64,000 nucleotides of DNA from NCBI RefSeq assembly GCF_041886205.1, contig NZ_CP169029.1; one strand, given 5' to 3'. This DNA comes from Escherichia coli (GTDB lineage: Bacteria; Pseudomonadota; Gammaproteobacteria; Enterobacterales; Enterobacteriaceae). This document shows, in pieces, positions 37,434 to 40,400 of the stretch (its first letter is position 1; each line of letters begins with the position of its first letter). The position numbers were made by a program.

Positions 37434-40400
37434 TAAGTGAACTGGCGCAGAATCGTCTGGCTATTGGCGTTGGTTACTCTGCCAACGCTTGCGGAGGAGA
37501 CGCCGTTACAACTGGTGCTGCGCGGTGCGCAGCACGATCAACTGTATCAGCTGTCGTCATCAGGCGTGACCAAAGCCTCGACATTACCTGACACGCTCAC
37601 CACGCCGTTAGGGAGTTTGTGGAAACTGTATGTTTACGCCTGGCTGGAGGATACCCATCAACCGGAGCAGCCCTACCAGTGTCGCGGAAACTCCCCGGAA
37701 GAGGTTTATTGTTGTCAGGCTGGGGAGAGCATAACGCGCGATACCGCGCTGGTACGTTCCTGTGGGCTCTATTTTGCGCCGCAGCGGTTGCATATTGGCG
37801 CAGATGTGTGGGGGCAATACTGGCAACAGCGTCAGGCACCTGCGTGGTTAGCGTCTCTTACTACGCTGAAGCCAGAAACCTCGGTAACGGTTAAATCGCT
37901 GCTTGATTCATTAGCGACGTTACCTGCGCAAAACAAAGCTCAGGAAGTCTTACTGGATGTGGTGCTGGACGAGGCGAAAATCGGTGTCGCATCCATGCTC
38001 GGTAGTCGGGTACGGGTGAAAACCTGGAGCTGGTTTGCCGATGATAAACAGGAAATCCGTCAGGGTGGTTTTGCCGGCTGGTTAACCGATGGTACACCGC
38101 TGTGGGTGACTGGCAGTGGCACCAGCAAAACGGTACTGACCCGTTATGCGACGGTGCTTAATCGGGTTTTGCCAGTGCCGACACAAGTTGCCAGTGGGCA
38201 ATGTGTAGAGGTGGAGCTATTTGCCCGCTATCCGCTGAAGAAAATCACAGCGGAAAAGAGTACGACGGCAGTAAAACCCGGCGTACTTAATGGGCGCTAT
38301 CGTGTGACGTTCGCCAATGGTAACCACATTACGTTTGTCAGCCACGGTGAGACGACCTTACTGAGCGAAAAGGGCAAACTGAAATTGCAGTCGCATCTCG
38401 ATCGTGAAGAGTATGTTGCCAGAGTTCTTGATCGCGAGGCGAAAAGTACGCCACCTGAGGCAGCGAAAGCCATGACCGTGGCGATACGCACTTTTTTACA
38501 GCAAAACGCCAATCGGGAAGGCGATTGCCTGACCATCCCTGACAGCAGCGCCACGCAGCGTGTTTCTGCTTCGCCAGCGACCACGGGGGCGCGAACGATG
38601 ACCGCCTGGACGCAGGATCTCATCTATGCGGGCGATCCGGTTCATTATCACGGCAGTCGCGCTACCGAAGGGACGCTTTCCTGGCGGCAAGCCATGGCCC
38701 AGGCGGGGCAGGGAGAGCGTTACGACCAGATACTCGCGTTTGCTTATCCCGACAACAGCCTTAGCCGCTGGGGAGCTCCACGCTCAACCTGCCAGTTATT
38801 ACCCAAAGCGAAAGCCTGGCTGGCGAAAAAAATGCCGCAGTGGCGGCGTATATTACAAGGCGAGACGGGGTACAACGAACCAGACGTGTTTGCGGTCTGT
38901 CGTTTAGTCTCAGGTTTCCCCTATACCGATCGGCAGCAGAAACGGCTGTTTATTCGTAACTTCTTTACGCTTCAGGATCGGCTGGATTTAACCCATGAGT
39001 ATCTGCACCTGGCCTTTGATGGTTATCCCACCGGGCTTGATGAGAACTATATCGAAACGCTGACCCGACAATTATTAATGGACTAATGCTATGCGAAAGA
39101 TTTTTCTTCCGTTGTTACTGGTGGCGCTTTCGCCTGTCGCTCACAGTGAAGGTGTGCAGGAAGTCGAGATTGATGCACCGCTCTCTGGCTGGCATCCGGC
39201 AGAGGGCGAAGATGCCAGTTTTTCACAATCGATCAATTACCCGGCGTCGTCCGTCAACATGGCAGATGATCAAAATATCTCAGCGCAGATCCGCGGCAAA
39301 ATAAAGAATTATGCTGCGGCGGGTAAAGTTCAGCAGGGCCGGCTGGTGGTCAACGGTGCCAGTATGCCGCAGAGAATTGAATCCGATGGTTCATTTGCAC
39401 GCCCTTATATTTTCACTGAAGGCAGCAACAGCGTGCAGGTCATCAGCCCGGATGGGCAAAGCCGACAAAAAATGCAGTTTTACTCAACGCCGGGTACAGG
39501 AACGATTCGTGCACGTTTACGGCTGGTTCTCTCGTGGGATACGGACAATACCGATCTCGATCTCCATGTTGTCACGCCCGATGGCGAACACGCCTGGTAC
39601 GGTAACACGGTGCTGAAAAACAGTGGTGCACTGGATATGGATGTCACGACGGGGTACGGCCCCGAGATTTTCGCCATGCCAGCGCCAGTTCACGGACGCT
39701 ATCAGGTGTATATCAACTACTATGGCGGACGCAGCGAAACGGAATTAACCACCGCCCAACTGACGCTGATCACCGATGAAGGATCGGTCAATGAGAAACA
39801 GGAAACATTTATTGTACCGATGCGTAATGCTGGCGAGCTGACGCTGGTGAAAAGTTTTGACTGGTGAGCCATCCCTTCACACAACCTGGCTCTTTCTTTT
39901 TTCAGATAAGACTGCTGGGCGATCTGCCGACGCCAGGATATAACCATTAACAAGCGTCGGCAGATTGGTCATTTCTTATTTTTCGTACTGAGAACTGTCC
40001 ATTTACTCCGGCTTTCCTGGTTAAGGCAATGGTTTCTAAGCGATACGCATTATTGCAATGGTGACAGAACATTGCGGTAACACGCTTTTACCGCTACCTT
40101 AACCACACTCCATCGGTCACCTGAGGCGGAGCTTCGCCCCTTTGAAATACCTTGCTTCTTTTCGTACAACCCTGAAAGCCTCGCGCTACATGTTCAGAGC
40201 ATTGGCGTTAGTGCTCTGGCTGTTGATTGCCTTTTCATCCGTTTTTTACATCGTTAATGCGTTACATCAGCGAGAATCGGAAATTCGTCAGGAATTTAAT
40301 CTGAGTTCCGATCAGGCTCAGCGCTTTATTCAACGCACCTCTGATGTGATGAAAGAGCTGAAGTACATCGCCGAAAATCGCTTATCGGCAGAAAACGGTG

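What the first reader, a model, noticed from the sequence alone, without database searches (positions are those of the whole stretch)
39868..40141. yfaP and rcsC separated by only about 270 bp: no ato operon at this junction
As I recall the K-12 map, the atoSC-atoDAEB short-chain fatty acid locus (about 7 kb) lies between rcsC and yfaP. Here yfaP ends at 39867 and rcsC starts at 40142, with a terminator-like hairpin and a short promoter region in between and no trace of ato genes. This is a strain-level presence/absence polymorphism; the junction has no obvious repeats or mobile-element scars.
Basis: partly seen in the sequence, partly recalled or inferred. Interest (0 to 1): 0.3.

Follow-up and report, generated by a model that had tools for sequence, protein, structure and literature searches.

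The report
Old ato-operon deletion allele in E. coli
This E. coli strain lacks the ato genes for using short-chain fatty acids between rcsC and yfaP, and this is an ordinary, already documented difference between lineages that about 28% of complete E. coli genomes share, although a small decayed piece of atoS remains at the junction.

Summary
yfaP ends at 39867, rcsC starts at 40142, and 274 bp lie between them. K-12 MG1655 has 7.49 kb there, carrying atoSC-atoDAEB. No ato enzyme gene occurs anywhere in the 64-kb window.

This is not a strain-level event. The same junction is in 1,537 of 5,426 complete E. coli genomes, including O157:H7, O145:H28 and O111:H8. Escherichia whittamii has the same architecture. 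Published data already show ato nearly absent from phylogroups B1 and E.

One claim is wrong: the junction is not free of ato sequence.
- 39877-39972 (minus strand) is a decayed stub of atoS codons ~23-54, 78% identical to K-12 in nucleotides.
- 39973-40070 is the diverged former atoS promoter side.
- Identity to K-12 returns to 100% at 40071.

It has a 12-bp perfect stem and a 20-nt loop, and a U-rich tract follows. It may terminate the co-directional yfa operon before rcsC.

No insertion sequence (IS), REP element, tRNA or direct repeat marks the joint.

The allele is old. The stub is 63-69% identical to K-12-type sequence, there are no intermediates, and the E. whittamii copy differs by 11-17%.

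Verdict: already known, low interest.

The parts
39091..39867 (+). yfaP, the last gene of the yfaA-T-S-Q-P alpha-2-macroglobulin cluster. Homology to K-12 ends exactly at its TGA stop.
   Evidence: ORF. 98.5% identity to K-12 b2225, with the alignment ending at L001 position 14368, the yfaP stop.
39868..39876 (.). Deletion joint: the few bases between the yfaP stop and the end of the atoS-derived stub. K-12 has the atoB/yfaP bidirectional terminator here instead.
   Evidence: There is no alignment to the K-12 atoB-yfaP spacer. The first ~27 nt after the stop are also the least conserved part of the spacer between E. coli and E. whittamii.
39877..39972 (-). Decayed remnant of the atoS 5' end, corresponding to K-12 AtoS residues ~23-54. 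It reads as a 31-codon ORF, MTNLPTLVNGYILASADRPAVLSEKRKSQVV*. It is a pseudogene stub, not a gene.
   Evidence: - blastn gives 78% identity over 69 nt to the inside of K-12 atoS, E = 4e-9. tblastn gives E = 0.004.
- The stub changes residues that are invariant in functional AtoS: IGYxVETEGR becomes NGYILASADR.
- The E. whittamii copy has differences in the same stretch, and by my own reading (not a tool result) one of them creates an in-frame stop (alignment).
- Other E. coli variants read through as a 41- or 63-aa ORF.
39916..39983 (+). Hairpin plus U-rich tract. The perfect 12-bp arms are 39922-39933 / 39954-39965 with a 20-nt loop. The stem extends to 39916-39971, and TTTCTTATTTTT follows at 39972-39983. 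It is a candidate terminator or insulator between the yfa operon and rcsC.
   Evidence: - The inverted repeat is shown.
- MFE is -29.7 kcal/mol, z = -4.88, with 0 of 200 shuffles folding as well.
- The consensus terminator scan does not report it, because its loop limit is 8 nt.
- The E. whittamii copy is weaker, z = -1.5.
- It is absent from the homologous K-12 atoS sequence (alignment).
39973..40070 (.). Strongly diverged remnant of the atoS-proximal half of the rcsC-atoS intergenic region (the former atoS promoter side). It has 52-bp and 11-bp gaps relative to K-12.
   Evidence: Alignments. Together with the stub, this segment is 63-69% identical to K-12-type sequences over 178 aligned nt.
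40071..40141 (+). Conserved rcsC upstream region (leader and probably the core promoter), shared by ato-positive and ato-negative alleles.
   Evidence: 71 of 71 nt are identical to K-12, and 95.8% are identical to E. whittamii. In ato-positive genomes the megablast match resumes at 40063-40066.
40142..42991 (+). rcsC, the sensor kinase of the Rcs phosphorelay, with a TTG start.
   Evidence: ORF. 99.4% nucleotide identity to K-12 b2218.

Best explanation
The window carries the common ato-negative allele of the Escherichia rcsC-yfaP interval.

**Origin (inferred).** An ancestral atoSC-atoDAEB cluster sat at this site. A single illegitimate deletion of about 7.2 kb ran from about codon 55 of atoS to the base after the yfaP stop codon. 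It removed most of atoS, all of atoC, atoD, atoA, atoE and atoB, and the atoB/yfaP bidirectional terminator. The part that stayed was the first ~55 codons of atoS with its promoter side. It has since decayed as a pseudogene.

**Age (inferred).** The event is old. It predates the diversification of E. coli. The allele is either inherited from the common ancestor with E. whittamii or was exchanged with that lineage long ago.

**Consequences (from established knowledge of AtoSC and AtoDAEB).** The strain has no AtoSC signalling and no acetoacetyl-CoA transferase, AtoE or thiolase II route. It should therefore not grow on acetoacetate or, via that route, on butyrate or valerate.

**Structural consequence (shown).** The yfaATSQP operon now points directly at rcsC, 274 bp away.

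**Role of the hairpin (inferred, untested).** The strong hairpin with its U-tract, inside the stub, is the likely element that stops yfa read-through. It would stand in for the lost atoB/yfaP terminator. The 71 bp upstream of rcsC, which are identical in both alleles, would keep rcsC expression unchanged.
For: - **Gene order and end points** are set.
- **No ato enzyme gene** occurs in the window.
- **The atoS remnant** is syntenic and collinear with the rcsC-atoS intergenic region.
- **Decay rather than a functional variant.** Residues conserved in all AtoS N-termini retrieved are changed. The stub ORF differs in length between lineages. No intact AtoS with a stub-like N-terminus turned up in the search of a 5.8-billion-protein collection.
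- **Frequency.** 1,537 of 5,426 genomes have the contiguous junction. The spacer is at least 99% identical in 1,390 genomes and 95-99% in 150. atoDAEB is in 3,926 genomes.
- **Two discrete classes with nothing between.** The atoS 5' region is either at least 95% identical (3,929 genomes) or 60-80% (15 genomes).
- **Age.** E. whittamii has the same indels and the same truncation. Its flanks differ from E. coli by 28-40% at fourfold-degenerate sites (synonymous third codon positions), and its stub is 83-89% identical. That fits the ordinary intergenic identity between the two species, 74-87%.
- **ato is ancestral at this site.** E. albertii has yfaP-atoBEADCS-rcsC, and the edges of its cluster show species-level divergence.
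- **No ato elsewhere in close relatives.** All 60 genomes closest at this junction, including six that are 99.9-100% identical to the window over 24 kb, have no atoD match elsewhere on the chromosome.
- **Hairpin statistics** are. The canonical K-12 terminator that was lost is also shown.
- **Literature.** The phylogroup-dependent prevalence of ato is published (PMC9602453).
Against: - The stub is more diverged from K-12-type atoS than simple neutral decay since the Escherichia crown predicts. It differs by 22% in the coding part and about 35% over 178 nt. Its branch is about 31% uncorrected, against roughly 19% root-to-tip at fourfold sites.
- The two stub lineages differ by only 10-17%, less than the 28-40% at fourfold sites in their flanks. 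Simple vertical descent does not fit perfectly. Exchange of the allele between species, or partial constraint, has to be invoked.
- The hairpin is not a canonical intrinsic terminator. Its loop is 20 nt and the consensus scan misses it. It is weaker in E. whittamii.
- No expression data were available.
Confidence: 0.85

Rival explanations
1. The stub-bearing, ato-negative state is the resident ancestral allele of the E. coli / E. whittamii lineage. On this reading the K-12-type ato cluster is a cassette that re-entered E. coli by homologous recombination from another Escherichia lineage that had kept it. K-12 regained ato; this strain did not lose it.
For: - The ato core moves between species. 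K-12 and E. albertii are 96-100% identical across atoS-atoB (fourfold divergence 4-13%), while the flanking yfaQ, yfaP and rcsC are 78-92% identical (fourfold divergence 34-43%).
- The atoS remnant in Escherichia sp. MOD1-EC7003 is 97.8% identical to K-12, while its flanks differ by 11-18% at fourfold sites.
- The stub allele shows roughly species-level divergence between E. coli and E. whittamii, as a vertically inherited allele would.
Against: - Diversity of ato within E. coli (97.9-100% identity) is as deep as ordinary core-genome diversity. ato has therefore been in E. coli since about its crown.
- The edges of the E. albertii cluster are diverged at species level, which shows that ato is old at this site.
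- The direction of transfer cannot be read from the few lineages sampled.
- The stub itself proves that an ato cluster was present before the deletion, so this rival changes only which allele the E. coli ancestor carried.
Confidence: 0.15
2. A recent deletion, private to this strain or clone, from a K-12-like ato locus.
For: None beyond the absence of ato itself.
Against: - The same junction is in 1,537 complete genomes of unrelated serotypes, and E. whittamii has the same architecture.
- The remnant is 63-69% identical to K-12-type sequence, whereas flanking genes are 98-99% identical.
- Truly recent, independent ato lesions look different. Strain NT1N28 has a deletion from atoD to yfaQ with K-12-like edges. 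Other strains have IS1 in atoS and IS421 in atoB.
Confidence: 0.02
3. ato is not lost but relocated. The strain would carry atoSC-atoDAEB elsewhere, for example on the LAA pathogenicity island at pheV.
For: - LAA carries atoSC-atoDAEB (PMC5539235, PMC6174562).
- Genomes with the junction (1,537) plus genomes with atoDAEB (3,926) exceed the 5,426 total by about 37, so a few genomes have both.
Against: - At most about 2-3% of genomes with this junction can have ato elsewhere.
- None of the 60 genomes closest at this junction has an atoD match elsewhere on the chromosome. That set includes the six genomes that are 99.9-100% identical to the window over 24 kb.
Confidence: 0.03

Closest known systems
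atoSC-atoDAEB locus of E. coli K-12 (b2219-b2224), between rcsC and yfaP
   Same: The chromosomal site and flanks are the same: yfaP is 98.5% identical, rcsC 99.4%, and the 71 bp upstream of rcsC are identical. The remnant of the atoS 5' end has the same position and orientation.
   Different: 7,424 bp of K-12 (L001 6944-14367) are represented here by 203 bp. No functional ato gene remains. The atoB/yfaP terminator is gone. The remnant is only 63-78% identical to K-12.
ato-negative genotype of E. coli phylogroups B1 and E (O157:H7, O145:H28, O111:H8 and others), reported as phylogroup-dependent ato prevalence (PMC9602453)
   Same: The junction sequence is identical or nearly so. It is 100% identical over 207 nt in many O157:H7 genomes and at least 99% in 1,390 genomes.
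   Different: Nothing of substance differs; the window is a member of this class. The paper reports gene prevalence only. In what I read, it does not describe the junction or the atoS stub.
Independent ato lesions in Escherichia: the MOD1-EC7003 deletion, the NT1N28 atoD-yfaQ deletion, and IS1 or IS421 insertions
   Same: They hit the same locus with the same outcome, loss of ato function.
   Different: Their end points differ, and what remains is K-12-like (91-100% identical). MOD1-EC7003 keeps 90 atoS codons plus REP elements. NT1N28 also loses yfaP and part of yfaQ. These lesions are recent, whereas the window's allele is old.
LAA pathogenicity island carrying a second atoSC-atoDAEB copy (PMC5539235)
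   Same: It shows that ato can be supplied from elsewhere in lineages that lack it at the native site.
   Different: It is not present in the window, and nothing suggests it is in this strain's close relatives.

Membership tests
Common ato-negative rcsC-yfaP junction allele of E. coli | yfaP and rcsC are adjacent and co-directional, separated by about 274 bp | tested here: met
   yfaP ends at 39867 and rcsC starts at 40142.
Common ato-negative rcsC-yfaP junction allele of E. coli | The spacer sequence is shared with other ato-negative genomes | tested here: met
   1,536 genomes cover at least 80% of the 208-nt spacer query, and 1,540 are at least 95% identical; 1,537 genomes have the contiguous junction.
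Common ato-negative rcsC-yfaP junction allele of E. coli | No atoC, atoD, atoA, atoE or atoB coding capacity at the site | tested here: met
   tblastn finds only the paralogous RcsC domains and the 27-residue atoS stub.
Common ato-negative rcsC-yfaP junction allele of E. coli | No ato copy elsewhere in the genome | tested here: inconclusive
   Only 64 kb of this genome are available. As proxies, all 60 genomes closest at the junction lack atoD elsewhere on the chromosome, and at most about 37 of 1,537 junction-bearing genomes can have ato elsewhere.
atoS gene (sensor histidine kinase) | Sequence homology to atoS at the syntenic position, divergent from rcsC | tested here: met
   78% over 69 nt, E = 4e-9. 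AtoS residues 23-49; collinear alignments.
atoS gene (sensor histidine kinase) | Full-length ORF with PAS, HisKA and HATPase domains and the conserved N-terminal motif | tested here: not met
   Only 31 codons remain. The conserved IGYxVETEGR motif reads NGYILASADR. This is a pseudogene remnant, not a gene.
Rho-independent (intrinsic) terminator | G+C-rich stem | tested here: met
   Perfect 12-bp stem with 8 G-C pairs, extended to about 17 pairs. MFE is -29.7 kcal/mol, z = -4.9.
Rho-independent (intrinsic) terminator | Short loop of about 3-8 nt | tested here: not met
   The loop is 20 nt, and the consensus scan reports nothing at this position.
Rho-independent (intrinsic) terminator | U-rich tract directly after the stem | tested here: met
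   In the MFE structure the stem closes at 39971, and TTTCTTATTTTT follows at 39972-39983.
Rho-independent (intrinsic) terminator | Termination of transcription in vivo | not testable with these tools
   No transcript data were available.
Deletion or excision mediated by a mobile element or genomic island | IS or transposase remnant, REP cluster, flanking direct repeats, tRNA or integrase, or atypical composition | tested here: not met
   Only chance-level short repeats are present. No tRNA gene lies in 25000-55000. The K-12 ato cluster has 50.7% G+C against 51.6% for the window.

The most novel reading that the evidence does not exclude
The rcsC-yfaP interval may hold an old two-allele polymorphism that crosses species boundaries in Escherichia. 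One allele is the intact ato cluster and the other is the decayed stub. Both would be kept and passed between species by homologous recombination.

The evidence that fits this reading:
- The ato core is 96-100% identical between E. coli and E. albertii, although their flanks are only 78-92% identical.
- The stub is shared by E. coli and E. whittamii.

This would suggest long-term, niche-dependent selection for and against short-chain fatty acid / acetoacetate catabolism. The stub's hairpin would have been recruited as a replacement terminator that shields rcsC from yfa read-through.
Probability: 0.35. Interest if true: 0.3.

Novelty: already known. Interest (0 to 1): 0.13.

Why it matters
The finding matters little beyond correct annotation.
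- **Phenotype prediction.** The strain should be unable to use acetoacetate or, via Ato, short-chain fatty acids, and it lacks AtoSC signalling.
- **Lineage marker.** The absence places the strain with the ato-negative lineages, mostly phylogroups B1 and E.
- **Annotation.** The small ORF in the spacer, which PGAP calls a 'hypothetical protein' in some genomes, is an atoS pseudogene fragment and not a gene.
- **Population genetics.** The locus is a tidy example of an old deletion allele and of ato DNA recombining between Escherichia species. This would interest only specialists in E. coli population genetics.

Tried and rejected
- **Rfam scan of 39400-40600** at E <= 1 gave no RNA family.
- **Sigma-70 promoter scan of 39700-40300** gave no site, so the rcsC promoter could not be placed. 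The two terminator-like hits are not at the hairpin.
- **tRNA scan** found none.
- **Repeat search** found no direct repeats or IS/REP scars at the joint.
- **Search for an intact 'parent' atoS with a stub-like N-terminus.** A 41-aa version returned only the stub ORFs themselves.
- **K-12 AtoS N-terminus search** returned only short fragments. These were useful for motif conservation but not for placing the stub among genera.
- **Test for recent introgression from E. whittamii.** Window-versus-K-12 SNPs in yfaP and rcsC side with E. whittamii about half the time, so there is no signal.
- **Test for linkage of yfaP SNPs with ato status.** The pattern is mosaic, with no association.
- **Literature search for the rcsC promoter** returned only irrelevant papers.
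- **The genome-contig scan with YfaP** returned only 17 loci and did not include E. fergusonii, E. marmotae or Shigella.
- **Compositional anomaly of ato** was rejected; its G+C is normal.
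Full report
**1. What is in the sequence**

In the window the gene order is gyrA (27814-30441), yfaA, yfaT, yfaS, yfaQ and yfaP (39091-39867), all on the + strand. A 274-bp spacer follows, then rcsC (40142-42991, TTG start, +), then rcsB and rcsD on the - strand.

- The window aligns with K-12 MG1655 yfaP at 98.5% identity, and the alignment stops exactly at the yfaP stop codon.
- It aligns with rcsC from 71-79 bp upstream of the annotated start onward.
- In MG1655 the interval between the rcsC start and the yfaP stop is 7,490 bp and holds atoS, atoC, atoD, atoA, atoE and atoB.
- tblastn with the six K-12 Ato proteins finds no atoC, atoD, atoA, atoE or atoB anywhere in the 64 kb. 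The AtoS and AtoC hits inside rcsC are the paralogous kinase and receiver domains.

**2. The junction is not empty of ato**

blastn aligns window 39893-39960 to positions inside the K-12 atoS coding sequence on the opposite strand: 78% identity over 69 nt, E = 4e-9. tblastn aligns AtoS residues 23-49 to 39972-39892.

- On the minus strand this stretch reads as a 31-codon ORF (39972-39877), MTNLPTLVNGYILASADRPAVLSEKRKSQVV*. The K-12 sequence is ...MVIVPTLTIGYIVETEGRSAVLSEKEKKLSAVV....
- The segment 39973-40070 aligns poorly with the atoS-proximal half of the rcsC-atoS intergenic region. It has 52-bp and 11-bp gaps.
- From 40071 to the rcsC start, all 71 nt are identical to K-12.
- In K-12 terms, 7,424 bp (L001 6944-14367) are represented by 203 bp here.
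- The deletion runs from about atoS codon 55 to the base after the yfaP stop. It also removed the strong bidirectional atoB/yfaP terminator, which is folded.
- The joint carries no IS, REP, direct-repeat or tRNA signature, and ato has normal G+C.

**3. The stub is a decaying pseudogene**

- AtoS N-termini from diverse enterobacteria, down to about 60% identity and including one annotated as Salmonella, all keep the motif PT..IGY.VETEGR.A.L.EKEKKL. The stub has NGYILASADR at the invariant positions.
- The E. whittamii copy has differences in the same stretch, and by my own reading (not a tool result) one of them creates an in-frame stop (alignment).
- In other E. coli variants the reading frame extends to 41 or 63 aa, and PGAP annotates a 'hypothetical protein' there.
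- No intact AtoS with a stub-like N-terminus was found in the 5.8-billion-protein collection.

**4. How common it is**

| Query | Genomes of 5,426 |
|---|---|
| Junction query, 1,274 bp, matched contiguously | 1,537 (28%) |
| 208-nt spacer, at least 99% identical | 1,390 |
| 208-nt spacer, 95-99% identical | 150 |
| K-12 atoDAEB present (97.9-100% identity) | 3,926 |
| K-12-type atoS 5' end, at least 95% identical | 3,929 |
| K-12-type atoS 5' end, 60-80% identical | 15 |
| K-12-type atoS 5' end, 80-95% identical | 0 |

- The genomes with the contiguous junction include O157:H7, O145:H28, O157:H16 and O111:H8 strains.
- The atoDAEB-positive genomes are almost exactly the complement of the junction-bearing genomes.
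- The two allele classes are discrete, with no intermediates.
- A published survey gives atoA prevalence of 98% in phylogroup A, 11% in B1, 100% in B2 and C, 67% in D and 0% in E (PMC9602453, Table 2). The polymorphism is already known.
- The junction count (1,537) and the atoDAEB count (3,926) together exceed the 5,426 genomes by about 37, so a few genomes carry both. The LAA island, which carries atoSC-atoDAEB, could account for them (PMC5539235, PMC6174562).
- A chimeric query of junction plus atoD showed that the 60 genomes closest at this junction have no atoD elsewhere on the chromosome. Six of these genomes are 99.9-100% identical to the window over 24 kb.

**5. How old it is**

A scan of species-representative genomes with YfaP found the following.
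- E. whittamii has the same junction, with the same indels and the same truncated stub.
- Its flanks differ from the window by 28-40% at fourfold-degenerate sites.
- Its other intergenic regions are 74-87% identical to the window's.
- Its stub segment is 83% identical over 39868-40070 and 89.7% over the 178 well-aligned nt.

Over those 178 nt:

| Comparison | Identity |
|---|---|
| Among K-12-type sequences (K-12, E69, MOD1-EC7003, E. albertii) | 92-98% |
| Among stub-type sequences (window, L019, E. whittamii) | 89-97% |
| Between the two types | 63-69% |

The allele therefore long predates E. coli diversification, and it is not a recent loss from a K-12-like locus.

E. albertii carries yfaP-atoBEADCS-rcsC at the same site. 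The edges of its cluster are diverged at species level (atoS 5' end 88.5%, atoB 3' end about 91%). Its core is 96-100% identical to K-12, with fourfold divergence of 4-13% against 34-43% in the flanks. I draw two conclusions:
- ato is ancestral at this site in the genus.
- The ato core has since recombined between species.

The numbers do not fit a single simple history. The stub branch is somewhat longer than neutral decay since the genus crown predicts, and the two stub lineages are somewhat closer than their flanks. Some exchange of the stub allele between species, or some constraint on it, is likely. I cannot tell whether the E. coli ancestor carried ato, the stub, or both.

**6. Function of what is left**

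- The 12-bp perfect inverted repeat (39922-39933 / 39954-39965, 20-nt loop) extends in the MFE fold to 39916-39971. TTTCTTATTTTT follows directly. The free energy is -29.7 kcal/mol, z = -4.9.
- The homologous K-12 atoS sequence does not form this hairpin (alignment). The E. whittamii copy has one stem mismatch and a poorer U-tract, z = -1.5.
- The deletion left the yfa operon pointing straight at rcsC and removed the original terminator. A role as replacement terminator or insulator is therefore a reasonable inference. The loop is atypically large, the consensus scan misses the hairpin, and nothing here tests the role.
- No Rfam family matches.

**7. Other lesions at the locus**

ato has been hit repeatedly:
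- a separate deletion in Escherichia sp. MOD1-EC7003 that leaves 90 K-12-like atoS codons plus REP elements;
- a deletion from atoD to yfaQ in strain NT1N28;
- IS1 in atoS and IS421 in atoB in single strains.

**8. Verdict**

- The interpretation as a presence/absence polymorphism is supported, but it is an old, lineage-level allele that is already documented at the level of gene content.
- The atoS stub, the age of the allele and the recombination of the ato core between species are small additions.
- Interest is low.

Noticed in passing
window 32817-37436 (+): yfaS, the alpha-2-macroglobulin gene, is an intact 1,539-codon ORF here. In K-12 MG1655 it is annotated as a pseudogene (b4500).
   Followed up: no
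window 13828-17664: About 3.7 kb between glpQ and inaA has no counterpart in K-12 apart from a 253-bp piece. It holds an intact LysR-family regulator (15551-16429, -) whose last 67 residues match the family of the K-12 yfaH pseudogene remnant. It also holds an MFS transporter (16581-17771, +) and a 368-aa ORF with no NCBIfam match (14015-15121, -). K-12 appears to carry a deletion here.
   Followed up: partly
window ~54976-55079: About 460 bp of K-12 (2304501-2304961, between eco and mqo) have no match in the window. The two megablast segments overlap by about 100 nt at this point, which suggests a repeat-bounded indel.
   Followed up: no
L021 10851-18101 (E. albertii-type contig) versus L001 7044-14294: The ato gene core is 96-100% identical between E. 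albertii and E. coli K-12, while the flanking yfaQ, yfaP and rcsC are 78-92% identical. Fourfold-site divergence is 4-13% in the core against 34-43% in the flanks. This indicates recombination of ato DNA between the species.
   Followed up: partly
L003 10781-11535 (Escherichia sp. MOD1-EC7003): This is an independent ato deletion. yfaP is followed by REP-like palindromes and a terminator-like hairpin, then 90 K-12-like codons of atoS (91% amino-acid identity), then rcsC.
   Followed up: partly
L025 4001-5190 (E. coli NT1N28): A third kind of ato lesion: a deletion that fuses truncated atoD to truncated yfaQ and removes atoA, atoE, atoB and yfaP. atoS and atoC remain intact.
   Followed up: no
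H126 (strain TF5) and H71 (strain LR-29-1): IS1 is inserted in atoS in one genome, and IS421 is inserted in atoB in another.
   Followed up: no
L020 1509-1634 (E. coli DETEC-P61); proteins P0001-P0003: In the rarer variant of the stub allele (about 97% identical), the stub reads as a 41-aa ORF (63 aa in one contig). PGAP annotates it as a hypothetical protein. The window has a stop codon that shortens it to 31 codons.
   Followed up: yes
L023 5519-6490 (E. albertii-type complete genome CP117556.1): An IS110-family transposase gene sits where yfaS should be, and no alpha-2-macroglobulin gene is called there. This suggests that yfaS is disrupted in that strain.
   Followed up: no
L009 499-1680 (E. 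coli E69): The atoB gene of this ato-positive genome is only 91.6% identical to K-12 atoB (fourfold divergence 25%), although its atoS is 96.1% identical. It is a diverged atoB allele or a recombinant segment at the yfaP-proximal edge of the cluster.
   Followed up: no
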